Source of the DNA: a virus
Length of the DNA: 64,000 nucleotides
IMG/VR virus record: IMGVR_UViG_3300042350_001802
Span: 63,228-127,227 of that record
Direction: 5' to 3' (one strand)
Position 1 is the first letter of the stretch; every line of letters begins with the position of its first letter. The notes under the pieces are model-generated. The model made no database searches, was not told the DNA's origin, and saw nothing but the letters and a program-made list of their open reading frames with translations. Positions 1 to 64,000 of this stretch are shown piece by piece. A program made the translations under genes and the position numbers.

Positions 1-780
1 ATTAAGAATGGACAGCTAAGGATGAAAGTGTCTAACGATACTTTAGGTGACCCAGCTCCAGGTACTTTTAAGTTTTTAGAAGTGATTCATTCTGAGGGTA
101 TTAAGAAAGTTCCAGAAGGTTCCTACATCACTCTTCCAGAATCACAGATTAACAAACTTGGTATCTGGTATTCTAATAACAACCATGATAAAACAGTTAG
201 GGAATCCGTAATGAATCTTCAACGATTTGAAAACGTCGCGGATATTCTTACATGCGTATGGAATCCCATACCTGGAAATCCTTTCTATGAGGTGAGTGCT
301 ATGACTAAAAGTAGCAGTCATCTCAATATCGTAATCCAGATCTTACAACTTTTATATGCTGCAAAGTCTAGTGGTAAGTATAAGTATGTCAGCTTTTTAG
401 AGCATGATGTATTGTATCCAGATGGATACTTTAACTTCCCTGACTTTGAGACTGGCATCATGACTAATATGAACTACATTGGTATTTGCGAAGCAGGTTT
501 CCAGAGAAAGACAGCTAACCATGAACCTCTTCATCAGATGACAATGATCTTTACAGAAGCTATAGATCACTTTGAAAACTTAGTAAAGGAAGCTATAGAA
601 AAAGGTGGTGTGCTTGTAGAACCTAATCCAGGTAGAAAACAGTGGATGTGTGCAAATCCTGCAATCCATGTAAATCACGGTAGACACTTTACATCCCACT
701 TTAGTATATACAGTAGGGATACATATGAAGAAGATGCTTTCTGGGGAAAAGCTGATTCTTTGATTAATAAACTATTCTAA
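1..780 (+). CDS. 5'-truncated glycosyltransferase-like protein with an N-terminal GDPAPG (lectin/DUF3395-like) module
   Basis: The frame is open from base 1 (IKNGQLRMK...), so the start may lie upstream of the window. It contains NDTLGDPAPGTFKFLEV and a GT-A-like FLEHDVLY (DxD-equivalent) motif. Confidence 0.55.
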   Translation: MKNGQLRMKVSNDTLGDPAPGTFKFLEVIHSEGIKKVPEGSYITLPESQINKLGIWYSNNNHDKTVRESVMNLQRFENVADILTCVWNPIPGNPFYEVSAMTKSSSHLNIVIQILQLLYAAKSSGKYKYVSFLEHDVLYPDGYFNFPDFETGIMTNMNYIGICEAGFQRKTANHEPLHQMTMIFTEAIDHFENLVKEAIEKGGVLVEPNPGRKQWMCANPAIHVNHGRHFTSHFSIYSRDTYEEDAFWGKADSLINKLF

Positions 781-813
781 AATACAAAGTCAGGTTTGTT
801 GGTTTTCCTGACA

Positions 814-852
814 AAACCCCCGTCGTTTCTACGTCTGGGGGTTTATTTTTTT
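814..852 (+). terminator. Rho-independent terminator
   Basis: Stem aaacccc...ggggttt with an inner cgt/acg pairing, followed by a T-run, after the stop at 780. Confidence 0.75.
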
Positions 853-904
853 ATACGGAAAAGTATTTGTAATATTGTTTAACTTAACCCATTAATATAC
901 CCAT

Positions 905-2218
905 ATGAATCTTATCAATCAAGTGTATGATTCACTTAAGCTAAAGAAGAGTGATGCCTTCTGTGCAGCAAAGATAGGAATTTCCCTGGAGAAATACCGT
1001 CAACTCAAGCAACAAATTACTAACATAAAATCCTTAGTGCAAGACGATATGGATGGAATGATGAAGGATGTTATTAATAAACGAATGCTTGATATTATAG
1101 ATGACGATACTATTTTAAATAATTATGTTGGAGAACTTGAGGACCAACTGACCGACGCGCTAAACCATAAAAAGGAGCGCGTCGTTGAGTTTAAGGAGGA
1201 TCTTGAAGATGGTACAGCTGAGATAAAGGGGATAGCTTTTGCTGAACCTAAGAGTCCTGAAGAAATCATTCGTATTCTTAAGATTGACACTGATAAGTGG
1301 AAACTCTCATCCTATTGGAATAAGCAGCATAAAGACTACTGGTTAATTTCTGCAATGGTAACACAGGTGAAGCAGGAACCCCAAGATCTGCTTGTAAAGG
1401 TGCTAGAGAACTTTAATCCTTTTACACAGGTACTTCCAGAACCTAAGATTACAGATAAGTTTATAAACCCTTCTGTAGCAGTGCTTTCTATACAAGATCT
1501 ACACTTTGGTAAGGAGGGTAATGATGGGGTGGTAAAAGACTTCAAAGATGCTATAACTAACTTAGTATTAAGAGCTTATCATTCGCATATGCTTGCGAAA
1601 ATTATCTATGTTATTGGGGGTGACCTTCTTAATATGGATACTTTTAATGGAGGAACTACTAGTGGAACAATTGTAGATAATGAGCAAAGAGCACAGCAAG
1701 CTTACCAGGACGCTTTTAATGCTATGTACTGGTCTATCAACTACTTAGCAGAGTTTACGCACGATTTACACGTTGTTTATTTACCAGGTAACCATGACCG
1801 CTTAAGTTCTTTTCATCTTGCTCACGCTCTATCTAAATGTTTTAACGATGATAGGGTGAAGTTTGATGTAGAGTATGCTGAAAGAAAGGTGGTTACATAC
1901 GGAAATAACTTCTTTGCTTTTGAGCATGGAGATGTTACTAAGAAAAACACACCCCTAGTTTATGCTACAGAATTTGCAAATGATTGGGGATCAACTATTT
2001 ATAGAACTTGCTACACTGGACATTTCCATAGCAAGAAAACTATAGAATTTGTTACAGAGAATGAACACCACGGGTTCTCTATAAAGCACCTACCTAGTCT
2101 TTCTAAGACTGATTATTGGCACTATCATAATAAGTTCACAGGTGCTAAGCGTCAAGCAGTTATGGAGCTTCATGACAAGGAAAAGGGTAAAATTAGTGAG
2201 TTTGTATATACAGCTTAA
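905..2218 (+). CDS. Calcineurin-like metallophosphoesterase with an N-terminal helical extension
   Basis: Motifs DLHFG, GGDLLN, PGNHD, EHGD and GHFH occur in canonical order. Confidence 0.85.
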   Translation: MNLINQVYDSLKLKKSDAFCAAKIGISLEKYRQLKQQITNIKSLVQDDMDGMMKDVINKRMLDIIDDDTILNNYVGELEDQLTDALNHKKERVVEFKEDLEDGTAEIKGIAFAEPKSPEEIIRILKIDTDKWKLSSYWNKQHKDYWLISAMVTQVKQEPQDLLVKVLENFNPFTQVLPEPKITDKFINPSVAVLSIQDLHFGKEGNDGVVKDFKDAITNLVLRAYHSHMLAKIIYVIGGDLLNMDTFNGGTTSGTIVDNEQRAQQAYQDAFNAMYWSINYLAEFTHDLHVVYLPGNHDRLSSFHLAHALSKCFNDDRVKFDVEYAERKVVTYGNNFFAFEHGDVTKKNTPLVYATEFANDWGSTIYRTCYTGHFHSKKTIEFVTENEHHGFSIKHLPSLSKTDYWHYHNKFTGAKRQAVMELHDKEKGKISEFVYTA

Positions 2219-2874: not shown

Positions 2875-3546
2875 ATGACGACTATAGGAGAAGCAATATC
2901 AAGAGTGCGTAACTTAATTAAAGCAGTTAAGCAGGATGCGTTCCTAACAGATCGTTTTCTTTATAGTCTTATTTCTAAGCACGCGCATTGGTTGATGAAG
3001 CGAGAGGATTCTAAGAATAAGCTTATGAGGTTTTCTTCTGTTATGCAAACTATTGATGTATTGGAACTTGAAGAGGTTGATAAGATAGAAGCGCAATGTG
3101 CTGGTATTAAAACAAACTGTACGATTAAAAGATCTTGCAGAGAGGTTCCTACATTTATGCAGGGATATTACGGACCATTAATTCGTTCTATTACATCATT
3201 AGATGGATCTCAAGTGCTACAACCTACAAATCCATCTACATATACAGCAATGACTGCTAGTAGTTCTTTTAAGTATAACAAGACTAAATACTACTGGTAT
3301 TTAAATGACTATCTCTACTTTCCAGATTTAGAATGGGATGCTGTACGTATAGAAGCAATTTTTGAAGATGATATTACATCTTATAACTGTGATACTTGCG
3401 ATGATTGTGTTCTTAGAACTGACCAACAATTTAATGTCCCAGATTATTTACACGCTGAGGTTGAAAGTAATGTGATGAAAGATCTTAGTATAATGTTACA
3501 AATACCATCAGACGTGCAATCAGATAAGCAAAATCCGTTACGATAA
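2875..3546 (+). CDS. Tail ring/tubular structural protein
   Basis: 223 aa; YYWYLNDYLYF beta motif; located between the IHF-like and muzzle genes. Confidence 0.55.
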   Translation: MTTIGEAISRVRNLIKAVKQDAFLTDRFLYSLISKHAHWLMKREDSKNKLMRFSSVMQTIDVLELEEVDKIEAQCAGIKTNCTIKRSCREVPTFMQGYYGPLIRSITSLDGSQVLQPTNPSTYTAMTASSSFKYNKTKYYWYLNDYLYFPDLEWDAVRIEAIFEDDITSYNCDTCDDCVLRTDQQFNVPDYLHAEVESNVMKDLSIMLQIPSDVQSDKQNPLR

Positions 3547-18235: not shown

Positions 18236-21214
18236 ATGGCAACATATATTAAAGGATTGATGGATAGCCCGCTTGCGGTGACACCGTTTACTCCAGACTA
18301 TAGTTTTTTGCAGACTGTAATGAAGACAAAGGATGCAGAATACGAACAGGGGTTTGCGAAAGTTAAAGGTTTATATAACTCCCTACTCAATTCAAAAGTA
18401 TCTAATGCTGAGGATCAAGAGGTTCAAAAAGCATATATAGCTGATGCAGAACGCAAGCTTCAAAATCTTGCAAGTGTTGATTTATCTGTTCCGCAAAATG
18501 TAGGAATTGCAAATAGCGTATTCAAAACATTTCTTAATGATGATGAGTTGATGTATGATATTAATCTCACCAAACTTTCTGATCAACAACTAGCATTAGG
18601 ACAATCTTTTTTATCATCCGATGATGAAAAACAACGTGCAAAACATTCTTCTATATCTGATGAATACGTTAAAATACCTACAGATGAGTTAAAAAGAGCA
18701 AAGCGTGGGGATGGTAGTATTCTACAAGTGAGACCTCGTTATTATGTACCTTCTGTTAATCTATACGAAAAGTTTAAAGGATTCTTAGATGTTTCTAAGT
18801 ATAAAGCAGTACAAGAATCTCCAAATGGACAGGGATATATATTTACTACTGTTGATGGTAAGAAGGTAGAGATGGGGGTATACAATCTTATGAATGGTCT
18901 CCTTACAGGAGATGAGCGTAAATATTTTGATGCGTGGGGTGAAGTTGTTTTTAATCGTGAAGTTAATAACTACTTTCAGCAAGGAATGTCTGATAAAGAT
19001 GCTCGAATGGCTGTTGCTACAAATCTTTATACAGAAAACCTTGAAGCATTAACTAAAAGTAAAAATGCTACTATTGCAGATAAAGCTCTTGTAGATGCAA
19101 AGATTACATCTCTTCAACAATTAAATAGACCTCTTACACCATATGAACAAGAACTATCTACCAGCTTAACAATATCTGCATTAGATTATAAAAAAGCTAT
19201 AGATTATTATGAATCAACTATTAATAAAGAAATATCACAAAAGGATGACACCATTAGAAAAAATTTTGAGGGTAAGTCAAAGGTGTTTAGTGATATGATC
19301 TTAGAAAGAGATCTTAGATCAATAGCAAAAGGTGTTGGAACTTTAGCTCAAAGTTCAGAAGTTAAATCTGATGATGCATACTGGAAAAAACTTGAGCATT
19401 TACGCGGTATGGAACAGTTGGAAATAAATCGTATGAAAGCTATTGCAGGTATGTCTGATGGTGATTCTGGTGGAGGTAGTGGTGGTGGAACAGGTGGTGG
19501 GGGTCGTAAATTAACAGAAGCTGAAAAACTTTTAGCAAAAACAAACACCCCAACATATGAAGGTTTACAAGCTGTTCCAAAAGATGAAGGTAAACCCCTA
19601 CCTAGATTTTATAATAATCTAAATATGATTTATGATGCTATGATGGATGCTGGTATAAAAGGAATTGGTGAAATGTTAGGGGAGGAATTTAGTAAGGGAG
19701 GACCAGCTGCAATATCTGTGCTTACAAACTTTTTAGTTAAGAAAAAACAAGAGGGTAAGTTTTTTGATGAAGCTGTAGAAATTAACAGAGGAACTGGTCC
19801 AGAAGCAGAAGCAATGAGACAGTTTATAAAAGTTTACAAAGAAGATATTACACCATATTTATCTAAAGCTGGAAAGTTTGGTCCTAATGATCCTATCTCT
19901 TATGGAGATGTATATGATTTTCTTTTAAATAGATCATATACACAGTATGATAGTCAAAAGGAAGTTTTTGGTGATGCTAAAAAAATTGAGCTTTTGAGAA
20001 ACTCATTTGGTCAAATAGAGCAGTTAAAACAACTTGCTGATATATATGAAAACGATAAGCAAACTCTTGAAGATAAAGTTTATTCGCAAGCTGATATTAT
20101 TCTTGGTCCTGATAAATATGATGTTTCGTTATTGTTTAAAACAGATGCTAACGGTTATAAAAGATTGATTACAAAAAACGAACTAAATGATATTTATGCT
20201 GCAAAAAGATTAGAGATGCAGAAAGAATTAGCAGCAAAAGGTTTTTATAATAGAGATGATGTTGCCAGATCTACTAGAATGGCAAATGTTGTAAATGATT
20301 ATGATAAGATAGAAGAAACTCTTAATAAATATGTTGGAGAAGGATTAACTGCTAATAAATTTACTCTCAGCAAAGAAGCATTAAGTCAATTTGGAACTTA
20401 TTATCTTCCATTTAGATCTGATGTTCCTGGTGAAGTTGCAGAAAATTCTATAGCAATGCTATTAAGTGATGCTAATTTAAGTGTTGGAAAAGATAATACT
20501 AAAAATGCTATAGATCTTGTTCCTTTATTAGGAACAGATGATTTATCTCAAGGTGATGTAGATGCAGCACGTAAGGTACTTGCACAACTTGCTTCTGATT
20601 TAAAAAATCCTGATAGCGGATATAGCGGAACGGTACAGTTTAAACAGTTTACTGGTGATCGCGCAGATAATAGAAAAGAGTATGTTATTAGAATAGACTC
20701 TAAAAAACTTCAAGATCAAGCAGATTTTTATGAGAAGAAAGATAATCGTACTAACGAAGATTTGGTAATAGGTAGTATATATAGAAGGATTATTAAAGAG
20801 GGAGGTGTATCAGTAAGAACAAATGATCCTATACCAGGTGGTACAGGTGAGTATAATGTATTAGAAAGATATTATCAATCACGAAATAAGTATACATCAC
20901 CAGAAATGGCAAAAGATCTTTATCAGTTTACTATTCTTAAAAAAGTTGGGGATCAGGGGTATGAACTATCTCCTGATTCATATTATATGGTTAAAAACCC
21001 TACAACAGGAGCTCCTGAAAAGATTAATTTAACAGGTATTGATTTTCCTCCACAATCTAGTTTTTTAGGACTTGCTGCAGAAACTACAAACTATATTATT
21101 GCTAGAATAGAAGCGTACACTAAAAAGCTTCAGCAGCAGCAAGCTAATCCTGGAAATACTAAAGTATATATGCAAGATATACTTAATCAGTATAATTATA
21201 AACCAGGTCAATAA
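18236..21214 (+). CDS. Large virion cargo/ejection protein
   Basis: 992 aa, helical, with a glycine linker and no Cys seen; first gene of the giant-protein cluster. Confidence 0.6.
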   Translation: MATYIKGLMDSPLAVTPFTPDYSFLQTVMKTKDAEYEQGFAKVKGLYNSLLNSKVSNAEDQEVQKAYIADAERKLQNLASVDLSVPQNVGIANSVFKTFLNDDELMYDINLTKLSDQQLALGQSFLSSDDEKQRAKHSSISDEYVKIPTDELKRAKRGDGSILQVRPRYYVPSVNLYEKFKGFLDVSKYKAVQESPNGQGYIFTTVDGKKVEMGVYNLMNGLLTGDERKYFDAWGEVVFNREVNNYFQQGMSDKDARMAVATNLYTENLEALTKSKNATIADKALVDAKITSLQQLNRPLTPYEQELSTSLTISALDYKKAIDYYESTINKEISQKDDTIRKNFEGKSKVFSDMILERDLRSIAKGVGTLAQSSEVKSDDAYWKKLEHLRGMEQLEINRMKAIAGMSDGDSGGGSGGGTGGGGRKLTEAEKLLAKTNTPTYEGLQAVPKDEGKPLPRFYNNLNMIYDAMMDAGIKGIGEMLGEEFSKGGPAAISVLTNFLVKKKQEGKFFDEAVEINRGTGPEAEAMRQFIKVYKEDITPYLSKAGKFGPNDPISYGDVYDFLLNRSYTQYDSQKEVFGDAKKIELLRNSFGQIEQLKQLADIYENDKQTLEDKVYSQADIILGPDKYDVSLLFKTDANGYKRLITKNELNDIYAAKRLEMQKELAAKGFYNRDDVARSTRMANVVNDYDKIEETLNKYVGEGLTANKFTLSKEALSQFGTYYLPFRSDVPGEVAENSIAMLLSDANLSVGKDNTKNAIDLVPLLGTDDLSQGDVDAARKVLAQLASDLKNPDSGYSGTVQFKQFTGDRADNRKEYVIRIDSKKLQDQADFYEKKDNRTNEDLVIGSIYRRIIKEGGVSVRTNDPIPGGTGEYNVLERYYQSRNKYTSPEMAKDLYQFTILKKVGDQGYELSPDSYYMVKNPTTGAPEKINLTGIDFPPQSSFLGLAAETTNYIIARIEAYTKKLQQQQANPGNTKVYMQDILNQYNYKPGQ

Positions 21215-29417: not shown

Positions 29418-32400
29418 TGGCAAACAACTGTTCAATTAACATTAAAGCTGATAAGCTACCTATTGTACTTAAGAAGGTAGAATACTATATGTTTAAAGCG
29501 TTAGATCGCTCTGGCATATCCTTTTTACAACTTCCTAAAACTAATGTAGATGAAAAACTTCAGCTTTTAGAAAATGCACGTTTGTTGCTTGAAGAAGATA
29601 TTCTACTCTATTCTAAAAAAGCAGTGAAGTTAAAAGATACAGAAGAAGGTGCGTTATATGAGAGTTTTGCACAAAACCTACAGGGTATAAATGCAAACTG
29701 GTCTGAAGCATCTGCATTGTTTCTAAAACACTTTGGTGGTATTATAAATTTAAGGACAAAGTTTAGACTTGATGAAGCGGGTCTTATAGATTTAGATGAA
29801 ACAGTGGATGAAGAAGAAGCTTTAAACACTAAGTTTGTATATGATCAACCAGCAAATGAGATTGATCCTGTAGATAATATAGATAAGGGGATTGAATTAT
29901 TTCTAAGATCTATTACTAAAAAGGATGTTTTTGACGACTATGGGTTTAATGTACTAGTAGACTACGGATCTTTTGTACGTCGTCTATCAACTGATTTAGA
30001 GAACACTGTAAACACTAATGAGATTATTAGTCGTTTAGAAACATTAAAAACAAGTGTTCCAGAATACCAGCAGATATTAGATAAGCTTCAGTTTAAACCT
30101 ACAGATAATGCTGATGACCTTCAGTTTAAAATAAACTTCCGTAATTCTTTTGCTAAAGCATTGATTCCTATATATGTTACATCTTTAGAGAATGGGGTTG
30201 TTAAGGTGATAGAAGCTACTACAGCTAAAAAGAATGCATACGAGCAAAGAGTTAACTCTAACTTTTTTAGACGCGGGATGCCTGTAACTGTAAATGGTAA
30301 AAAGGTAAATCTAGCAAGTAAAGAAGGAGGGGTGTGGGTGCTTACTAAGAGTGATCTTTCTAAGCTTCAAAAGTTTATGGATGAGAAATCTATTCCAGCT
30401 GGAGAGATTACAGAAAGAAAGATTCAATTTTTAGAAGCACTCGGATTTGAGTTTTCTCCTGAGTCAAGAGAACTTTTAAAAAAGGTTAGCAATCTTAACA
30501 CAGTTGTTAAATATATATACGATCATACAGTAAGAATATTAGAAAAAGGTGATAGGATTAAAAGTCCTATTGATGCCATTTCTAAGACAGTCTTTATTAA
30601 TAAGAAGAAATATCAGGGACAGAGAGGTAATCTTAATATAATTACCAACTTTGAGATTAAATATAATAAAAGCTTTAACACTGAAAGAAGTATTGTAAAT
30701 CAGGATGGTAATAGACAGCATGCTATTCAACACCATAACAATTTTACTATTGTAAATAAGTTCTTATCTGATCCTCAATCTTATCCTACACTTCAAAGTA
30801 TAATTCAATCAGAACCATCTATGTTCTGGTTAGATCCTATACGCAATCCCTCGATTGCAAATAGTGTTCTATTGAATAGTCTATTTTACTATTCTCCTCA
30901 AGATCCAAACTTTGGTGCTAGAAGACGTGTTACTAAAAATCAGCAGGGTGTTGTTTTTTCACCAACTGAAGGTGAATTTGTTACAATCAGTGTTACCAAC
31001 ACTGGTGGTATGCAAATGAAAGATGAGCGAGGTCTTAAGAGTGATTCTGCAGGTAGTACTTCCTTGACAAGTGTTGATAAACTCATACAGGATATAAATA
31101 TGTTTATGTTCCGTGGGATTACAAGTGTTCAACGACTTTCAGATAAAGCTACAGATCTTGGAGTTTCATTAAACTATTATATTGATCCAGTAACCGGTGC
31201 TCCAGTGCAGCGTATATTAGGTGGTGCAACAAATTACGAAAGCATATTTAATACAGATCAGTTTTTAGAGAGTACGTTAAATGCTTTGCGAGATGTAATG
31301 AAGTCTGCGTATTTAGCAAAAAATGGATTTTACGATGAGTTGGCAGTAGCAAGTAAAACTATAATGTCACCATCTAACTTTGGTGTATTTACTAGTATAT
31401 TGAGTAGTGATGTTAAGTCTATTCTTAACTCAATGATTGATAATGCAGTATCTGTAGAAGATATTGATAATATGATGTTAGAAAACACTGATGAAAGAGA
31501 AGTGATTCTTTTTGATATTCAGGAGTATATGACAGAGTATAGAGAGCGTTTTAAAGATCTCTTAAACCCTGTTTTATCTTTAGTTCCAACAACTAATATA
31601 TTTGGTGCTGATGGTGCGGGTAAAGCTAAAGATGTGGATAATATAATTGACTACTATCTTGCTAATACATTTCTACAGGATATAGAAAACCTTAAAGTAT
31701 TTTTTGGTGATTCTTTCTTCTTTAAAGCATTTCATAAGCGTAGCAGTAAAGATTCTGCAACAGGAATTTTTACAATCATTGATGATGCTATTATTGAAAG
31801 ATTTAATAACTACAGTGATGCTCAAGGATATGGTGCAAATACCAACCTTGGTGGAAGAATGCTAGCAGAAAGACTTTATAATCAGGGTGTTATAAATAAT
31901 GATTCTAAAAACTCTGTTATTGAATTACAACAAGTTAGCAAGTCTTTTAGATCTGGTGTAATAAGCGATGTAAATTTTAAATCATCGTATATAAAAAACA
32001 TTAAAGATAACATCGAGAGACTTCGTTCACAAGGACTTATTTCAGATGAGAACTATAAGTTGTATAAAGACAATCTACAAAAAGTTATTAGCGAAAGTTA
32101 TAACGGTGTAGAAGCAGATGGACAGGGTAAATGTACATTTGATTTCTATCGTATTATGAGCATTCTTACTAGCGATTGGAGTAGGGAGCATGAGGACGCA
32201 TATAAAAAAATCACCTTATACGCACATTATCAGAGTCTTGTTGAGTCTGAAAAAGATGAAGCTAAGCGTGCTGAGTATTTAATGAAAAGAGATGCTGTAG
32301 GATACGACCCCCTACTTGAGGTGTATTTTCCACCTAAAAAGTTTCAATACTCTGGACCAATGGAATACTCAAAAGCTGTCAATGGTCAAGAGTATGGGCA

Positions 32401-35400
32401 AATGATTCCTGTGTTTGATAAGTTTTCTTTACAACCACTTATACCTACAATCATCAAAGGAACTGCAGATGAGCACTTAGCTAATAAAATGATGTTTAAT
32501 GGTGTTGGATATGTAAAGTTTGAAAGTGGAACAAAGGTAGAAAGTCCTAAGAATAAGGATAGTTACTATGCTGAATACAATGAGTCTAATCCTCAAAGTA
32601 GATCTATATATACATTGGAGCAGATGATTGAGATGGGTAGGAACGTTCGTTTTAAATCCGAACAAACTCTCTTCTTTAATCATCTAAAGCAACAGGTTCG
32701 TATTGATTCAAATGTGCATCTAACATCAATCTTTGGTTCACAAATTCGTAAGCTTGTTTTAAGTAACATCTTAGGAATGGACACTGAGTTTAATAAATCA
32801 GAGTTTGTCCGTATTTATAATAAGTATACCGGATTGATTAACAGTTTGATTCGTGCTGAAAAGAGAGACTTGTACGGTAAGATGGGAGTTAGAGAAAACG
32901 CTGATCGTGAGCTTAGTATATCAAATATCAAAAAACTTGTTCAATTCTTTTTTGAAGAGATAGATAAGAAGAACCAAGATAGTAATGTTCGTCGTGCTTT
33001 AAATTATAACGAAGAGACAGGACAGTTTGAGATTCCTTTAGATGGATCTGTACAAGCACAAATTATAGAGGGTATTATTATTTCTTCTCTGAATAACCGT
33101 ATTGTAAGACACCGTACTAATGGTTCTATGCTCACCCAAGTGGCAATTACTGGTAGTGAGCGTGTTCAGTTTAGTAAGGAGAAGTCTAAAGAAGCTCTAA
33201 AGACTTTCGGTAACACCGAGCTTAAATACTATGACGTTATAGAAGAAAATGGTAAGCTTACAGTTACACCTATGCAGGTGAAGATTGGTTTAACACCACA
33301 GTGGAGACCTCTTTTGAATCTTAAGCATATTGATGGTAATCCAATTGGATCAATAGAGCGTTTAAATGAAATGCTTAAGAATGACACTTGGAAGAAAAGG
33401 AATAAAGAATCTATTAGACTTACCGCATATCGTATTCCTACACAAGGTCTTAACTTCTCTGAAGTGATGGAAGTTGCTGAGTTCTTACCAGCAGCATTTG
33501 GAGATGCTATTATTCTACCTTCTGAGATTGTAATTAAAACAGGATCTGACTTTGACATCGATAAGATGTTTGTATTCTACCCAAATCTTGTAACAGAGGG
33601 AGAAAATTCTGGAACAGTTGTAAAAGATGGAAGTAAACAAAGCATTGAGAATGAACTATTTGCAACAATGCAAGAGTTGATTCTCCATCCATCTAACTAT
33701 ATGCAGCTTGTTACACCTAGTACAAGCTTCCATATAATGCCAACTGTAAATAAGATATATAAGAAACTTTATGGTAAGGAGAGAGAGCAGACAGACTACA
33801 AAGACACTCAATTAATAGATAGAGATTATAACATTCGCAAGTTCAAATCCCTACTAACTGGTAAGAATGATCTTGGTATTGCAGCAATTGCTAACACCTT
33901 CAATGTGTTATTTCAATTGTCAAATGCAGTATCTAGCAGTCAGTTTTTAGAGACTAATGAAATTAGAACTTTACTCAAAAGTCCTTCTGTAATAAAAGAT
34001 AGGGAGACGGATAAAGTTTTAGAGATTAAGTTTGGGAATATATATGATCAGGATGGGATGTATAAGAGCGAGTTCTTTGCTGAGTTTATTAGTGCTTTTG
34101 TGGACGTTGCTAAAGATGACTACGTGTTTGCAATAAACGTTGTTACAGAACTTAGTCCTTTGATCTTTAGCATGAAGTTCCAGGGCTACTCAACAGAAAG
34201 TATTTTAGCATTTATAAATCAACCTGCTATAAGAGATTTTACTAAGAACCTTGCTAAGTATAATAGCATGATTGTTGATACGTATTTAGAATCTGAAAAG
34301 AAAAGAATAGCAAAGATTATAGATACATCATCACCTGCTGACATTGAAGAAAACGAACAAATTAAGGTGTTTCAAGCAAGACTTGAAAAGCTTAAATACT
34401 CTGCAAGAAGGAAAGCATTATCAGAAACATTGAAGAATCTAGGGTTTGGAGATATCAAACCGTACAGGAAGTCAATGTTTAATTTCTTAACTAAGAACAA
34501 TAAGAAGCTATCATCTTATAGTGGTGCATTTACGCAGGAATCTTTAATGGATAGTATAAAACCTGATGAGTTTGATGTTTCTATGCTTTCTCAAGATCAG
34601 AAGCTATCGCAGCTTGCTATGCTCTTTGAACTTGAAAATCAAAAGATTATATCTGATAGCATGACAGAAACAGAGTCCTTCTTAAACTTTGATACTAAAC
34701 CTCACGCTAGTAGCTTTGATGCATATCTTAGAAACAGTAAGTATATGAAAGCGAAAGCTGGTGGTTCTATACTTTCTATTGATACAATCAATACGATTAA
34801 AGACTTAAGTCCAATCGCTCCTTTAAATATAGGAAAAGAAATAGTATCAATTCTTGAGTCTGCGTTCCCTATTCGAAATAATAGAAAGATAAATGCAGAG
34901 GTTTTAGAGGCAGCGTTAGCAGCTCGTCAAGATCCAAACATCATCAATGTTCGCACTGAAGATGATATGAACACTCTTGCTCGCACTTTTAAGAATGACT
35001 TTATGAGTTATATTCTGTATAACTATCTGGATAAGTCAGAAGCTGGTAGAGAGTTCTTTAAGAAAGAGTTTAATACAGATAAGACCTTTGTAGAATATAT
35101 GAAGGAACTTGTTGAAACTCCTAAGCTGTTGGATCTATTTAATAAAGTGAAAGATGACCTTTCTGTTGAAGACTACCAGGAGTTAATTAAGATGTACCCA
35201 TTCATACAGAACATTGTACCAAAGAGTGGGGAGAAAAATACACAACTTGTTGGTTTTAAACTTGTTGAGAATAGTTCTCATACAGTGGATAAGGAAAGTG
35301 TTATTGCTCAGTTTGAAGATGCAATCAATCTGACTGGGGAAGAAAGCAAAGATGTAAGAATGTTCCTTAGAAATCTTGCACTATATTCTACATTCCAGTC

Positions 35401-36703
35401 AGGATATAATTACGGAGAGTTTTCGTATATTGCAGTGACACCTATTAATCTGATTAACAAGCTGTATGGTGAAGCTGTTCAAGAGTTTAATAGAGCATCA
35501 TCTGAACAGAAAAATGTTTCCTATAGAGATTTTAAGGATATGTTTAGGAAGAATAACCCAGTGTTTTATGCTGAAAGGTCTAGTATAAACCCTATGACCG
35601 GGGAACTTTCTAAACAAGGTAAGTGGTATGTTAGTGGAGTGAACTTAGACTTTACCAAAAATGTTCCGAAAGTAGGTAATCCGTTGATTGACGCTGGTGT
35701 TAAACCAACTGATATGAACGGTAATGCTGCTAAAGATGTGGTGATGGCAAGTGAGTCTACACAATTTATTGGGTTTAAATCTGGAAGCGCTGCAATATCA
35801 TCTACTGATAAGTATAGACTTGCTTGGGGTGATAAAGCTAATACAGGCAAGTATACCTCTTCAGATGTTGTAATGGTGTCTGCAAGTGGCGTATTTAGAG
35901 GAGTAACTAGAGAAGAAGTAATTAAAACTTTTGAGTCTAAATATATACCCATCTTAAATAAAGCTATGGAAGCAGGTGTTAGTTTTAGAGTGGGTAATCA
36001 ATACGATAAAGGTAACTTAGGAGATTTCTTAGTTGCTGATCATCTTCGTAAAAATGGATATGTTGAACAGAAGTTTGAAGGATATTCTAGATGGTTTCCT
36101 AAAAAGTCAGATCAAGCAAATGAGTTTTTACTTGCTGATAGTTTAGCACCTATACAACAAAATTTTGCTGATAGCGCTACTAGAAGAATGCGACCTGAGT
36201 TTGCTGGAAAGTCAACTATGGATCTTATTATATCTGGAGATAGAACTAGAAGTACTAGAGCTAAGACAGATATATCTAGAATGTTAAAAGATTACAATCT
36301 ATCTAAAATATCAGAACTTGTGGGTAAGGTTATCAGAATGACTGATCAACAAGGAAGAGTGGTATACACAAAGATTACTAGTGTAAATGAATTTACACAA
36401 CAATATCAAGATAAGACATGGATGAAAGAGGGTTGGACTAAGGAAGTTACAGATAGTCTTGTAGGTAAATACCCTTATGCTATAGAGTTTGAGGTGGTTA
36501 GGAAACCAGCAAGTTCTGCAGAACCTTTGCAAAAACCTACAGATTTAACTTCTAAGATAGATGCATGGATTTCTAGTGAGCTTCCCTGGAGTATTGAAAC
36601 ACCTTCTGATAAGATTGCTAAAATGTACGAGAACGAGAAACTTACAGGTGAAACAATTGAAGAATTTTTACACAGGATGTCATGTCTTGGTAAACTAAAA
36701 TAA
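29417..36703 (+). CDS. Virion RNA polymerase (double-psi beta-barrel, crAss/phi14:2 gp66-like)
   Basis: 2428 aa; catalytic GSDFDIDK (DFDID at 33548-33562) preceded by YRIPTQ; also EADGQG, FDKFSL and FESGTKV motifs. Confidence 0.9.
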   Translation: MANNCSINIKADKLPIVLKKVEYYMFKALDRSGISFLQLPKTNVDEKLQLLENARLLLEEDILLYSKKAVKLKDTEEGALYESFAQNLQGINANWSEASALFLKHFGGIINLRTKFRLDEAGLIDLDETVDEEEALNTKFVYDQPANEIDPVDNIDKGIELFLRSITKKDVFDDYGFNVLVDYGSFVRRLSTDLENTVNTNEIISRLETLKTSVPEYQQILDKLQFKPTDNADDLQFKINFRNSFAKALIPIYVTSLENGVVKVIEATTAKKNAYEQRVNSNFFRRGMPVTVNGKKVNLASKEGGVWVLTKSDLSKLQKFMDEKSIPAGEITERKIQFLEALGFEFSPESRELLKKVSNLNTVVKYIYDHTVRILEKGDRIKSPIDAISKTVFINKKKYQGQRGNLNIITNFEIKYNKSFNTERSIVNQDGNRQHAIQHHNNFTIVNKFLSDPQSYPTLQSIIQSEPSMFWLDPIRNPSIANSVLLNSLFYYSPQDPNFGARRRVTKNQQGVVFSPTEGEFVTISVTNTGGMQMKDERGLKSDSAGSTSLTSVDKLIQDINMFMFRGITSVQRLSDKATDLGVSLNYYIDPVTGAPVQRILGGATNYESIFNTDQFLESTLNALRDVMKSAYLAKNGFYDELAVASKTIMSPSNFGVFTSILSSDVKSILNSMIDNAVSVEDIDNMMLENTDEREVILFDIQEYMTEYRERFKDLLNPVLSLVPTTNIFGADGAGKAKDVDNIIDYYLANTFLQDIENLKVFFGDSFFFKAFHKRSSKDSATGIFTIIDDAIIERFNNYSDAQGYGANTNLGGRMLAERLYNQGVINNDSKNSVIELQQVSKSFRSGVISDVNFKSSYIKNIKDNIERLRSQGLISDENYKLYKDNLQKVISESYNGVEADGQGKCTFDFYRIMSILTSDWSREHEDAYKKITLYAHYQSLVESEKDEAKRAEYLMKRDAVGYDPLLEVYFPPKKFQYSGPMEYSKAVNGQEYGQMIPVFDKFSLQPLIPTIIKGTADEHLANKMMFNGVGYVKFESGTKVESPKNKDSYYAEYNESNPQSRSIYTLEQMIEMGRNVRFKSEQTLFFNHLKQQVRIDSNVHLTSIFGSQIRKLVLSNILGMDTEFNKSEFVRIYNKYTGLINSLIRAEKRDLYGKMGVRENADRELSISNIKKLVQFFFEEIDKKNQDSNVRRALNYNEETGQFEIPLDGSVQAQIIEGIIISSLNNRIVRHRTNGSMLTQVAITGSERVQFSKEKSKEALKTFGNTELKYYDVIEENGKLTVTPMQVKIGLTPQWRPLLNLKHIDGNPIGSIERLNEMLKNDTWKKRNKESIRLTAYRIPTQGLNFSEVMEVAEFLPAAFGDAIILPSEIVIKTGSDFDIDKMFVFYPNLVTEGENSGTVVKDGSKQSIENELFATMQELILHPSNYMQLVTPSTSFHIMPTVNKIYKKLYGKEREQTDYKDTQLIDRDYNIRKFKSLLTGKNDLGIAAIANTFNVLFQLSNAVSSSQFLETNEIRTLLKSPSVIKDRETDKVLEIKFGNIYDQDGMYKSEFFAEFISAFVDVAKDDYVFAINVVTELSPLIFSMKFQGYSTESILAFINQPAIRDFTKNLAKYNSMIVDTYLESEKKRIAKIIDTSSPADIEENEQIKVFQARLEKLKYSARRKALSETLKNLGFGDIKPYRKSMFNFLTKNNKKLSSYSGAFTQESLMDSIKPDEFDVSMLSQDQKLSQLAMLFELENQKIISDSMTETESFLNFDTKPHASSFDAYLRNSKYMKAKAGGSILSIDTINTIKDLSPIAPLNIGKEIVSILESAFPIRNNRKINAEVLEAALAARQDPNIINVRTEDDMNTLARTFKNDFMSYILYNYLDKSEAGREFFKKEFNTDKTFVEYMKELVETPKLLDLFNKVKDDLSVEDYQELIKMYPFIQNIVPKSGEKNTQLVGFKLVENSSHTVDKESVIAQFEDAINLTGEESKDVRMFLRNLALYSTFQSGYNYGEFSYIAVTPINLINKLYGEAVQEFNRASSEQKNVSYRDFKDMFRKNNPVFYAERSSINPMTGELSKQGKWYVSGVNLDFTKNVPKVGNPLIDAGVKPTDMNGNAAKDVVMASESTQFIGFKSGSAAISSTDKYRLAWGDKANTGKYTSSDVVMVSASGVFRGVTREEVIKTFESKYIPILNKAMEAGVSFRVGNQYDKGNLGDFLVADHLRKNGYVEQKFEGYSRWFPKKSDQANEFLLADSLAPIQQNFADSATRRMRPEFAGKSTMDLIISGDRTRSTRAKTDISRMLKDYNLSKISELVGKVIRMTDQQGRVVYTKITSVNEFTQQYQDKTWMKEGWTKEVTDSLVGKYPYAIEFEVVRKPASSAEPLQKPTDLTSKIDAWISSELPWSIETPSDKIAKMYENEKLTGETIEEFLHRMSCLGKLK

Positions 36704-43383: not shown

Positions 43384-43413
43384 AAAAGGGGAAAGTTAAA
43401 TTTCCCCTTTTTT
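43384..43413. terminator. Bidirectional terminator between convergent modules
   Basis: aaaaggggaaa-gttaaa-tttcccctttt lies between the + stop (43381) and the - stop (43412). Confidence 0.85.
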
Positions 43414-44081: not shown

Positions 44082-44118
44082 AAAAAAATAGGGGAGAGAA
44101 AAATCTTCCCCCCCCTTT
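44082..44118 (-). terminator. Rho-independent terminator
   Basis: On the - strand, a G-run/gaag...ctctcccc stem followed by a T-run. Confidence 0.7.
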
Positions 44119-44137
44119 GTTTGTTGGTTTTCCTGGA

Positions 44138-44311
44138 TTAAGCTATATTCTTATCTCTAAACGCAATAGCTTCTTTACGCGTTGCAAAGTTACGACTAAC
44201 TAACTTTCCGTTCTTTTTAAAACGAACACGGTAGCTGTTGTTTTCTTTACAGATGTTGTTTGCCACTCTTTTGTAGGTGGTAGTGGTGTACCTTTTGTTG
44301 GTGGTAGACAT
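44138..44311 (-). CDS. 57-aa AP2-like DNA-binding protein (absent from the ORF track)
   Basis: Manual translation: MSTTNKRYTTTTYKRVANNICKENNSYRVRFKKNGKLVSRNFATRKEAIAFRDKNIA. Confidence 0.6.
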   Translation of the reverse strand: MSTTNKRYTTTTYKRVANNICKENNSYRVRFKKNGKLVSRNFATRKEAIAFRDKNIA

Positions 44312-61567: not shown

Positions 61568-62188
61568 ATGTCACAAATAGTATCAATAACGGGTTTACAA
61601 AATCTTGTGAACCTAGATTATTTTAACGCAGACTTTAACAGTCTTCAAACTGTTAATCTGTCTAATCTTCCTAATTTAACATATGTAGATGTTAGTGACT
61701 GTGACTTTCCTGGAACAGGCATTTCTAGCTTAACATCTGTTAACTTTTCAGGATCTACAGGTATTACAGAGATTCGTCTTGATGATAGTGATTTCTCTGC
61801 AGGACTTCCTAATATCTCAGCACTTACAAATCTGTATTGGCTTGATGTAGATCAATGTAATCTACCTTCCTTAAATCTATCTGGATTGAGCAACTTATTT
61901 TTTGTAGACGCTTGGGGAAATGATAATATGACAACAATTGACATTACAGGATGTAGCAGTCTAGTAGAACTTTACCTGGATAGCTGTGCTTTAACACAGC
62001 AATCCGTTGATCATATACTTGCTGAACTTGATGATCAAGGTAACACAGGTGGTTATTTGGATATTAGTGATACTGGAAATGCTTATCCTTCTCCTGCAGG
62101 AATGGTGAGTCTTGCTAACCTTCAGGGTAAGGGATGGAGTATTTATTACAATGCTCCTCCAAGTACCACTACAACAACAACTATTTAA
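61568..62188 (+). CDS. Leucine-rich-repeat protein
   Basis: Repeated LxxLxxLDxxxC/NxL units; C-terminal LQGKGWSI and poly-T tail. Confidence 0.75.
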   Translation: MSQIVSITGLQNLVNLDYFNADFNSLQTVNLSNLPNLTYVDVSDCDFPGTGISSLTSVNFSGSTGITEIRLDDSDFSAGLPNISALTNLYWLDVDQCNLPSLNLSGLSNLFFVDAWGNDNMTTIDITGCSSLVELYLDSCALTQQSVDHILAELDDQGNTGGYLDISDTGNAYPSPAGMVSLANLQGKGWSIYYNAPPSTTTTTTI

Positions 62189-63866: not shown

Positions 63867-63929
63867 GTTAACATTTACATAAGCTTACATACCCCCTCAA
63901 CATCTTCTGTAAGCTGCCTAAGCAAAAGT

Positions 63930-63961
63930 AAGGGTCCCACAATCGGGACCCTTTTCCTTTA
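63930..63961 (+). terminator. Rho-independent terminator
   Basis: aagggtccc-acaatc-gggaccctt followed by a T-rich tail. Confidence 0.8.
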
Positions 63962-64000
63962 CTACCAAGATATACCACCAAGATTCTTAGATGCTAACCA

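What the first reader, a model, noticed from the sequence alone, without database searches (positions are those of the whole stretch)
789..852. Late 3'-UTR hairpin whose loop is antisense to a 17-nt site in an opposite-strand 3'-UTR
Seen: gtcagg(789-794)/cctgac(807-812) closes a 12-nt loop tttgttggtttt immediately before a terminator. The 17-mer gtttgttggttttcctg (794-810) recurs exactly at 44119-44135, between the stop of the - strand AP2-like gene and its terminator. Because the two loci are transcribed from opposite strands, the RNAs are perfectly complementary (UUUGUUGGUUUUCCUG versus CAGGAAAACCAACAAAC). Inference: a trans-acting sRNA with its target or sponge, linking the late and replication programmes; the loop could also pair with A/C-rich Bacteroidota translation-initiation regions.
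Basis: partly seen in the sequence, partly recalled or inferred. Interest (0 to 1): 0.72.

Follow-up and report, generated by a model that had tools for sequence, protein, structure and literature searches.

The report
Conserved anti-leader RNA hairpin, crAss-like phages
A small RNA hairpin at the end of a late gene block of this lake crAss-like phage is kept in all related phages examined, and its exposed loop mirrors a short signal in front of a few virion genes, which suggests RNA-on-RNA control of their translation; the second 17-letter copy that drew attention is peculiar to this phage.

Summary
Observation confirmed. The hairpin (789-812), its terminator and the exact 17-mer at 794-810 and 44119-44135 are all there. 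The hairpin is real: it sits at the syntenic spot in 80 of 80 related loci. Its stem covaries (7 of 7 pairs; 0 of 500 shuffles reach the score). The loop core UUGUUGGUU is near-invariant, G-U pairs mark the sense strand, and no Rfam family matches.

The 17-mer partner is not conserved. The 57-aa gene beside it has no homologue in 21 related regions, and a strain variant already alters the 17-mer. A repeated 17-mer somewhere in the window occurs in 65 of 100 shuffles.

A different set of complementary sites is conserved. An A/C box (AACCAA core) lies 1-12 nt before the start codons of the two genes flanking the capsid gene (22 of 23 and 21 of 23 genomes; capsid gene itself 1 of 25) and of a third family (7 of 7). 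Only 4 of 116 leaders in this genome carry it. Real loops pair with these leaders far better than shuffled loops (0 of 100).

Best reading (about 0.5): a terminator-sharing 3'-UTR riboregulator. No transcript has been seen, and no genome-specific co-variation was found. The scan reported look-alike hairpins before on other crAss-like genomes.

The parts
1..780 (+). Last gene of the upstream late transcription unit (5'-open ORF, stop TAA 778-780). HP1 lies in its 3'-UTR.
   Evidence: ORF list. It lies in the same + block as TerL, portal and major head protein. No PHROG or Pfam family.
789..812 (+). HP1: 6-bp stem (789-794 with 807-812) and 12-nt loop UUUGUUGGUUUU (795-806). This is the conserved element.
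   Evidence: Core present in 79 of 80 loci at the syntenic spot, and about 600 nt upstream in the 80th genome. Covariation. G-U-type 12 versus A-C-type 1.
814..852 (+). Intrinsic terminator: bulged hairpin 814-844 (GC core 817-841), then TTTATTTTTTT 842-852. Its loop UUUCU(A) is conserved in the closer relatives.
   Evidence: RNAfold. My scan gives -15.8 kcal/mol. Not called by the consensus scanner. Loop conservation seen in alignment A1.
856..904 (+). Promoter-like spacer before the metallophosphoesterase ('DNA repair exonuclease') gene. Relatives share TAACTTTATACACCATATAC here. Inferred middle-type promoter.
   Evidence: Conserved motif seen. The positional counterpart in phi14:2 (g075) has a mapped middle promoter P075. 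Inference, not tested here.
905..2218 (+). 437-aa metallophosphoesterase gene, the synteny anchor of HP1.
   Evidence: phrog_704 at 4e-51. 106 relatives in viral contigs.
44119..44135 (-). Locus 2: second copy of the 17-mer (+ strand letters). On the - strand RNA it reads CAGGAAAACCAACAAAC in the 3'-UTR of the 57-aa gene. It is specific to this lineage.
   Evidence: Not conserved. Matched only as a bare loop by the model.
44090..44116 (-). Intrinsic terminator of the 57-aa gene (- strand only).
   Evidence: 12 pairs, tail ATTTTTTTAC. Not called on the + strand.
44138..44311 (-).
   Evidence: ORF list. No PHROG or Pfam family. No homologue in 21 related regions.

Best explanation
SHOWN. HP1 (789-812) and the intrinsic terminator that follows it form one conserved, single-copy RNA module. 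The module closes the last late (tail-fibre and glycosylation) transcription unit, just upstream of the promoter of the metallophosphoesterase-cargo-RNA-polymerase operon. It occurs across a large clade of uncultured crAss-like phages. The stem is kept by compensatory changes. The loop displays a near-invariant single-stranded UUGUUGGUU. The folded strand is the sense strand.

ALSO SHOWN. The invariant part of the loop (UUGGUUU[U]) is the complement of an A/C box, AAAACCAA(A/C). The box is conserved 1-12 nt upstream of the start codons of a few specific virion genes: the two genes flanking the major-capsid gene, and a phrog_4417-family gene. It is absent from the capsid gene's own leader.

INFERRED. 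The module is, or gives rise to, a small RNA that shares the mRNA's terminator. Its loop base-pairs with these Shine-Dalgarno-less leaders and so tunes translation initiation, most simply by blocking the ribosome landing site. This would link transcription of the distal late unit to synthesis of head-module proteins.

The second 17-mer copy at 44119-44135 is a lineage-specific box-type site in the 3'-UTR of an accessory gene. It could be an extra target or a sponge, but it is not part of the conserved system.
For: Structure and conservation
- 106 relatives of the neighbouring gene were found and 80 loci kept.
- The core, with at most 1 mismatch, lies within 330 nt upstream in 79 of 80. The 80th genome (G003) has the module about 600 nt upstream, with an HNH-like ORF inserted between terminator and promoter.
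- 35 distinct stems among 67 distinct sequences; 61 of 67 have at least 4 pairs.
- With all non-Watson-Crick pairs scored alike: G-U-type 12, A-C-type 1.
- Covariance model R1 hits the syntenic spot in 64 of 68 sources.
- On its alignment (35 distinct rows) 80.9% of cells pair versus 50.6% in shuffles (0 of 500 reach it). All 7 of 7 pairs have double changes. Covariation score 0.657 versus 0.175 (0 of 500), and 0.04-0.11 for slid registers.
- Eight more variants came from exact-word scans. All five viral-contig variants lie upstream of a homologue of the same gene at 30-46% identity.
- One hairpin copy per genome.
- The other three strong + strand terminators of the block have no such hairpin.

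Box
- AACCAA occurs in 22 of 23 gU leaders, 21 of 23 gD leaders and 1 of 25 capsid-gene leaders.
- It occurs in 7 of 7 evaluable leaders of the 310-aa family.
- Only 4 of 116 leaders in this genome have it, and they are exactly gU, gD, the 310-aa gene and an 82-aa gene.
- Own loop versus shuffled own loop: gU -8.52 versus -5.81 kcal/mol (sd 0.35), gD -8.09 versus -5.76 (sd 0.45), 0 of 100 shuffles as low in each. Capsid gene -4.5 versus -4.16 (20 of 100).
- In this genome the top-5 leader duplexes average -10.76 versus -9.41 (sd 0.63) for 300 shuffled loops; 1.7% are as low.
- Perfect pairing of at least 7 nt with the genome's own loop in 21 of 23 gU and 19 of 23 gD leaders.
- Two outgroups without the hairpin also lack the box in the head-module leaders I looked at: phi14:2 (100,000 of 100,418 bases searched) and a 38-kb segment of cr55_1.
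Against: - No transcript has been seen; no RNA run holds the locus.
- Own loops pair no better with own leaders than other genomes' loops do (gU -8.52 versus -8.49, permutation fraction 0.45; gD -8.09 versus -8.44, fraction 0.92). This is co-conservation of two near-invariant motifs, not demonstrated co-variation, and it amounts to roughly one coincidence.
- Given the composition, a complementary 6-7-mer arrangement has a chance of roughly 1 in 15 to 1 in 21 (my estimate).
- Many boxes read AAACCAA-A-CAAA, which leaves only 7-8 contiguous pairs, mostly A-U.
- A blunter test was negative: exact k-mers of the 12-nt complement in all leaders versus letter permutations gave, at k = 8, 3 observed versus a mean of 3.9.
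- Extra copies of the 11-mer in 25 genomes (11) fall within the range of same-composition control words (5, 5, 8, 10, 32).
- Gene starts were inferred from alignments and the nearest in-frame ATG, so some may be wrong.
- The box could be a translation enhancer or a DNA or protein site unrelated to HP1.
- Only two outgroups were examined, one of them in part.
Confidence: 0.5

Rival explanations
1. HP1 is a cis-acting 3'-end element that works with its terminator. Its loop is a docking site for a host or phage protein, or for RNA polymerase itself. That partner sets termination efficiency, read-through into the next operon, or 3'-end stability. The complementarity to leader boxes is a coincidence between two low-complexity motifs.
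For: - HP1 always travels with the terminator, even where an HNH-like gene separates both from the promoter.
- The terminator loop is itself conserved in the closer relatives.
- It is single-copy and sits at one specific operon boundary.
- No genome-specific co-variation with the boxes.
- Bacteroidetes have RRM-type single-stranded-RNA binders. RbpB binds GUAGGAUA, which resembles GUUGGUUU at 5 of 8 positions (passages of bioRxiv 10.1101/2021.04.27.441718). This is a lead only.
Against: - It does not explain why a rare box (4 of 116 leaders), complementary to the invariant loop core, is conserved at three orthologous leaders.
- It does not explain why the box is absent in the two outgroups that lack HP1.
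- The position of the core within the loop varies (0-6 nt from the 5' arm, 0-5 nt from the 3' arm). That argues against structure-specific recognition of the boxB or MS2 kind.
- HP1 and the terminator do not overlap, so no switch between alternative folds is apparent.
Confidence: 0.25
2. One reading: HP1 is a trans-acting small RNA whose partner is the perfectly complementary 17-nt site in the 3'-UTR of the opposite-strand 57-aa gene (target or sponge). This would link the late and replication programmes.
For: - Exact 17-nt identity, found only at these two places in 127 kb.
- It extends 1 + 4 nt beyond the loop into this genome's own stem. Other genomes' extra copies extend 0-3 nt.
- Duplex -28.2 kcal/mol, with both sites accessible.
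- It is one of five box-type sites on transcribed strands in this genome.
- Two other genomes have an A/C tract of the same kind between a - strand stop codon and its terminator (L108, L150).
Against: - The 57-aa gene is absent from 21 related regions, although its neighbours are conserved (143-aa gene in 13, 75-aa gene in 10).
- The genes next to the three such sites are unrelated.
- A strain variant changes position 16 and the next two bases. One change in 17 nt is about the background rate there.
- A repeated 17-mer somewhere in the window is expected (65 of 100 shuffles).
- HP1 is conserved far beyond the phages that have this site.
Confidence: 0.12
3. A DNA-level signal. TTGGTTTT/AAAACCAA is a double-stranded binding site for a phage regulator, or HP1 is a single-stranded DNA hairpin used in replication or packaging.
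For: - The same word recurs near gene starts and in HP1.
- G-T wobbles would also be tolerated in single-stranded DNA.
Against: - Stem covariation and strand asymmetry are not expected of a double-stranded site.
- Cumulative GC skew turns only at about 14-17 kb and about 106 kb, not at about 64 kb where HP1 lies.
- The boxes keep one orientation and lie 1-12 nt from the ATG, which is typical of an mRNA leader element.
Confidence: 0.06

Closest known systems
GcvB small RNA silencing C/A-rich (ACA) translation-enhancing elements in target leaders (PLoS Genet 2014, PMC3879156; abstract read)
   Same: A G/U-rich single-stranded seed in a small RNA faces A/C-rich sequence just upstream of start codons of several genes. 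Many boxes here contain ACA (AACCAACA, CCAAACA).
   Different: No sequence or structure relation: no Rfam family reaches threshold. The seed is in a hairpin loop. The element is phage-encoded and lies in a 3'-UTR. The host type has no Shine-Dalgarno signal in these leaders and probably no Hfq (passages). Regulation is untested.
3'-UTR-derived base-pairing small RNAs that share the mRNA's terminator (CpxQ, SroC, DapZ type; recalled, no paper read)
   Same: Position directly after a stop codon, use of the parent mRNA's intrinsic terminator, and a conserved short seed.
   Different: No evidence of a processed or separately transcribed short RNA. No conserved promoter upstream (inspection). Chaperone and RNase dependence unknown.
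Lambda nut (boxA/boxB) and HK022 put antitermination RNAs (recalled)
   Same: The order gene stop, conserved hairpin, terminator, next operon resembles cro-nutR-tR1.
   Different: One copy per genome, at the end of a long late unit rather than just after an early promoter. The loop is 10-19 nt with a motif whose position shifts. No boxA-like partner was identified.
Cellulophaga phage phi14:2 (Crassvirales), g076-g075 boundary with middle promoter P075 (bioRxiv 10.1101/2020.03.07.982082, passages; NC_021806)
   Same: Same gene order: a metallophosphatase gene opens the block that runs to the virion RNA polymerase. A host-type promoter sits in front of it.
   Different: phi14:2 has no HP1, no terminator in that spacer and no box in the head-module leaders. 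TerL identity to this phage's clade is only about 25%.

Membership tests
Any Rfam family | Score at or above the family's gathering threshold | tested here: not met
   Window 600-1000 in E-value mode: best hits rli38 24.9 (threshold 49) and NsiR1 19.3 (threshold 39), both driven by the terminator. Ten diverse related loci at gathering threshold: 0 matches.
3'-UTR-derived, terminator-sharing base-pairing small RNA | Lies after a stop codon and ends at the mRNA's own intrinsic terminator | tested here: met
   Stop at 778-780, HP1 at 789-812, terminator at 814-852. Same order in the relatives.
3'-UTR-derived, terminator-sharing base-pairing small RNA | Conserved single-stranded seed complementary to conserved sites in target mRNAs | tested here: met
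   Invariant loop core. Box in 22 of 23, 21 of 23 and 7 of 7 orthologous leaders. Real loops beat shuffled loops, 0 of 100. Genome-specific co-variation was not found.
3'-UTR-derived, terminator-sharing base-pairing small RNA | A stable short RNA species exists (by processing or an internal promoter) | not testable with these tools
   No RNA run is listed as holding the locus.
3'-UTR-derived, terminator-sharing base-pairing small RNA | Expression of the target changes when pairing is changed | not testable with these tools
   Needs reporter or infection experiments.
   57-aa gene in 0 of 21 regions. The 11-mer is absent from most syntenic regions. A strain variant alters the site. The HP1 arm of that strain could not be recovered.
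Lambda-type nut site | Two or more copies just downstream of early promoters; short structured loop at a fixed geometry | tested here: not met
   One hairpin per genome. It lies at an operon end. Loop 10-19 nt with the core shifting in position.
Intrinsic terminator (second hairpin) | G+C-rich stem followed by a T run | tested here: met
   The consensus scanner misses it because the stem is bulged.
AP2 DNA-binding domain (57-aa ORF) | Match to a Pfam or PHROG family | tested here: not met
   0 families at E <= 0.01 in Pfam and 0 in PHROGs.

The most novel reading that the evidence does not exclude
A clade-wide, chaperone-independent phage riboregulator. The last hairpin of the tail-fibre and glycosylation transcript is released as a small RNA of about 65 nt. 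Its G/U loop silences (or activates) an A/C-rich, ACA-containing enhancer box in the Shine-Dalgarno-less leaders of a small regulon of virion genes, so that head-module protein synthesis is timed by completion of late transcription. In this particular phage an accessory gene of the replication arm has captured a perfect 17-nt site, which acts as a sponge or cross-talk point between the two programmes.
Probability: 0.15. Interest if true: 0.8.

Novelty: new variant of a known kind. Interest (0 to 1): 0.6.

Why it matters
My searches found no regulatory RNA described in print for crAss-like phages, and the element matches no Rfam family. Little is known about post-transcriptional control in hosts that lack both Shine-Dalgarno-led initiation and Hfq. 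A short conserved hairpin paired with a rare conserved leader box gives a concrete circuit to test: one loop, three or four leaders, and obvious compensatory mutations. It would test how translation is regulated in Bacteroidota-type systems and how these abundant phages balance virion components. It also shows that the eye-catching exact repeat was the least conserved part of the system.

Tried and rejected
- DNA-level searches of both loci against GenBank phages found nothing.
- The neighbouring gene and TerL have only distant named relatives (under 32% and about 25% identity).
- The search for related loci with the 244-aa gene found no relative.
- RNAalifold on MAFFT alignments missed HP1 because the stems are out of register. 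I built the model from seven hairpins of equal geometry instead.
- My first leader test (exact k-mers versus letter permutations) was negative.
- My conclusion, 'no conserved phage target', was wrong. The sites compared there were different members of the box set: L086 is the gU leader of G013 and L106 is the 310-aa-family leader of G014.
- Extra copies of the 11-mer are not enriched over same-composition words.
- The 1.7-fold excess of the 9-mer (103 in all, about 23 of them HP1, versus 47 for the control) falls largely 4-6 kb upstream on the opposite strand. In this genome that is where Thr-rich ACN coding tracts lie.
- No RNA holder is listed for the locus.
- The test of whether the HP1 3' arm and locus 2 change together in strains could not be done.
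- Origin or terminus role: no skew turn at HP1.
- My note that no terminator follows the giant gene was wrong. A bidirectional terminator lies at 43384-43411. At locus 2 the terminator is called only on the - strand.
- Considered by inspection and dropped without a dedicated call:
  - an H-type pseudoknot between the loop and the A-rich spacer (the 1-3 nt linker cannot span the stem);
  - an antiterminator pairing GGUUU with the terminator's 5' arm (not conserved);
  - a mimic of a CRISPR repeat (recalled similarity of UUUCUAC only, in the wrong order).
- The resemblance to the RbpB motif is a lead only.
- gU and gD match no PHROG family.
- Supplements of the phi14:2 preprint (promoter lists) were not seen and may bear on the promoter inference.

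Full report
WHAT IS THERE. The window is the right half of a 127,227-bp phage genome assembled with 127-bp end repeats. Its DNA is held by lake and freshwater metagenomes.

At 789-812 the + strand reads gtcagg-tttgttggtttt-cctgac. This folds as a 6-bp stem with a 12-nt loop. It is followed at 814-844 by a second, G+C-rich bulged hairpin and the run TTTATTTTTTT (-25.3 kcal/mol, z -3.27). My own terminator scan calls the second hairpin. The simple consensus scanner does not.

The 17-mer GTTTGTTGGTTTTCCTG occurs at 794-810 and 44119-44135. It occurs nowhere else in the genome, even with 2 mismatches. At the second place it lies between the stop codon of a - strand 57-aa ORF and that gene's terminator. 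So the two transcripts would be complementary over 17 nt: -28.2 kcal/mol, with both sites accessible.

IS THE REPEAT MORE THAN CHANCE? The window holds exactly one repeated 17-mer. Dinucleotide shuffles hold 1.59 on average, and 65 of 100 hold at least one. A repeat of this length somewhere is therefore expected. That it falls on this particular element is less expected: the word itself is expected 0.00 times, and the match runs 1 + 4 nt beyond the loop into this genome's own stem. Nothing else is shared by the two loci.

THE HAIRPIN IS A REAL, CONSERVED RNA STRUCTURE. The gene downstream (905-2218) is a metallophosphoesterase, phrog_704 'DNA repair exonuclease'. Of 106 relatives in viral contigs, 80 loci were kept.
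- In 79 of 80 the core TTGTTGGTT, with at most 1 mismatch, lies within 330 nt upstream.
- In the 80th genome the same hairpin and terminator lie about 600 nt upstream. An HNH-like ORF is inserted between the terminator and the gene's promoter. The hairpin therefore belongs with the terminator.
- Among 67 distinct sequences there are 35 different stems, for example GUCAGG/CCUGAC, GGAGG/CCUCC, AGAGGG/CCCUCU, GUAGAG/CUCUAC, UGUUACG/CGUAACA. Six columns of the core are invariant.
- With all non-Watson-Crick pairs penalised alike, G-U-type pairs on the + strand number 12 and A-C-type pairs 1. The sense strand is the folded one.
- A covariance model built from seven equal-geometry hairpins finds the syntenic hairpin in 64 of 68 sources. 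It misses L064, L076, L077 and L080.
- On its alignment (48 matches, 35 distinct rows, one of them a false positive) 80.9% of cells pair versus 50.6% in shuffles (0 of 500). All 7 pairs show double changes. The covariation score is 0.657 versus 0.175 (0 of 500) and 0.04-0.11 for slid registers. This alignment is fitted to the model, which favours the structure.
- Exact-word scans added eight more stem variants. The five from viral contigs all sit upstream of a homologue of the same gene at 30-46% identity.
- No Rfam family matches.
- Each genome has one hairpin copy.

WHERE IT SITS. The genome has a long + block (about 19-106.6 kb) carrying TerL, portal, major head protein, tail genes and then giant virion proteins. 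By my scan it has only four strong + strand terminators, at 36,022, 55,961, 64,073 (the HP1 terminator) and 106,637. The other three have no hairpin in front.

TerL places the phage as a distant relative (about 25% identity) of Crassvirales infecting Bacteroides, Flavobacterium and Cellulophaga. In Cellulophaga phage phi14:2 the positional counterpart of the metallophosphoesterase gene is g075. Its promoter P075 was mapped as a middle promoter used by host RNA polymerase (passages of bioRxiv 10.1101/2020.03.07.982082). HP1 plus its terminator thus closes a late unit right before a probable middle-type promoter. This last step is inference.

THE 17-MER PARTNER IS NOT CONSERVED. I located the end of the giant-protein gene in 21 of 25 related genomes and fetched 4.6 kb beyond it in 20.
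- In those regions plus L108, the 143-aa neighbour is found in 13, the 75-aa neighbour in 10 and the 57-aa gene in 0.
- The 11-mer with at most 1 mismatch resembles locus 2 only in G014. G015 has a similar arrangement 6.3 kb away. The genes next to these three sites are unrelated.
- A strain variant differs by 35 letters over 1,497. It changes position 16 of the 17-mer and the next two bases. That is about the background rate.
- The model matches locus 2 only as a loop without a stem (13.5 bits, E 8.3).

A CONSERVED SET OF COMPLEMENTARY SITES ELSEWHERE. Earlier notes of this scan on other crAss-like genomes reported hairpins of this kind facing an A/C box in front of head genes. I took this as a lead and tested it here. 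The major head protein is 73-89% identical in 25 of 30 related records. I call the genes just upstream and downstream of it gU and gD (genome 29228..30490 and 32377..33393).
- AACCAA occurs in 22 of 23 gU leaders and 21 of 23 gD leaders, ending 1-12 nt before the ATG. It occurs in 1 of 25 leaders of the head gene itself.
- The next-commonest same-composition words are overlapping pieces of one box, AAAACCAA(A/C).
- Only 4 of 116 leaders in this genome have AACCAA: gU, gD, a 310-aa phrog_4417 gene at 61784 and an 82-aa gene at 19266.
- All 7 evaluable orthologues of the 310-aa gene also keep the box. Six further hits could not be evaluated.
- The box is the complement of the invariant loop part UUGGUUU(U).
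- Each genome's own loop pairs with its gU and gD leaders at -8.52 and -8.09 kcal/mol on average. Shuffled versions of the same loop give -5.81 and -5.76 (0 of 100 as low). The head-gene leaders show no such effect (-4.5 versus -4.16; 20 of 100).
- Two outgroups without the hairpin lack the box in the head-module leaders I looked at: phi14:2, and a 38-kb part of cr55_1.

LIMITS.
- Own loops do no better than other genomes' loops (permutation fractions 0.45 and 0.92). I did not reproduce genome-specific co-variation. Loop core and box are both nearly invariant.
- Two single cases fit co-variation: the G031 loop UUUUAUUGGUUUUU with box AAAACCAATAAAA, and the G033 loop UUGUUGGUUCU with AACCAACAA twice. 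They prove nothing alone.
- Contiguous pairing is short: median 7 nt, range 6-13 for gU and 4-11 for gD.
- Extra 11-mer copies are not enriched.
- No RNA has been seen.

MECHANISM, WITH ODDS.
- Most likely (about 0.5): HP1 with its terminator is, or yields, a small RNA whose loop pairs with the box in these leaders and tunes translation initiation. The leaders are A-rich and G-poor (positions -14 to -10: A 0.47-0.67, G 0.06-0.12). The closest functional analogy is GcvB, which silences ACA-containing enhancer sequences in target leaders (abstract of PMC3879156). Many boxes here contain ACA.
- Rival (about 0.25): a protein- or polymerase-binding 3'-end element, with coincidental complementarity.
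- The 17-mer pair as the main function: about 0.12. It may be an extra, lineage-specific target or sponge.
- A DNA-level signal: about 0.06. Stem covariation, strand asymmetry and GC skew argue against it.

NOVELTY. No matching family was found in Rfam. None of my three literature searches on crAss-like phage transcription signals and RNAs listed such an element. The phi14:2 preprint has no occurrence of 'hairpin' or 'terminator' in its main text. The scan itself has reported look-alike hairpins before on other genomes. A look-up by this sequence found none.

Noticed in passing
L104:1545-2040 (genome G003): An ORF with an HNH-type endonuclease motif (by eye; no family search run) is inserted between the HP1-terminator module and the promoter of the metallophosphoesterase gene. 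This shows that the two modules are separable.
   Followed up: partly
window 827-832 and the same spot in L003-L046: The loop of the terminator hairpin (UUUCUA) is conserved across the closer relatives while its stem covaries. This is unusual for a plain terminator and suggests the whole two-hairpin unit is under selection.
   Followed up: no
outside the window: genome 17,200-18,900: A non-coding stretch of about 1.7 kb between the leftward and rightward blocks coincides with the minimum of cumulative GC skew. It is a candidate origin or early region. phi14:2 has highly transcribed long intergenic regions (passages).
   Followed up: no
window 43384-43411: A bidirectional intrinsic terminator fills the 30-nt gap between the converging 2222-aa gene and the 143-aa gene.
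   Followed up: partly
window 856-904 and L003-L046 around 2930-3000: A conserved motif TAACTTTATACACCATATAC, preceded in many relatives by TGTGTATAA, lies before the metallophosphoesterase gene. It looks like a Bacteroidota-type promoter (the TAnnTTTG element is recalled, not tested).
   Followed up: no
outside the window: genome 19253-19264: The full 12-nt complement of the loop (AAAACCAACAAA) overlaps the stop codon of one small ORF and ends 1 nt before the ATG of an 82-aa gene. It gives the best predicted leader duplex in the genome (-12.9 kcal/mol).
   Followed up: partly
outside the window: genome 59,000-61,800: Thr-rich (ACN-repeat) ORFs give many near-matches to the loop's complement on the sense strand. 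They probably explain much of the excess of the 9-mer in relatives.
   Followed up: partly
L159, L161, L162, L168 and 10 more viral contigs: The exact 17-mer also occurs inside an unrelated conserved coding sequence (protein start MRIVCWFSCGAA...) in 14 of 34 viral-contig hits. This shows that the word arises independently.
   Followed up: no
genome ends (window 63874-64000): The 127-bp terminal repeat equals a common assembler word length (recalled). It probably reflects a circular assembly rather than true genome ends.
   Followed up: no
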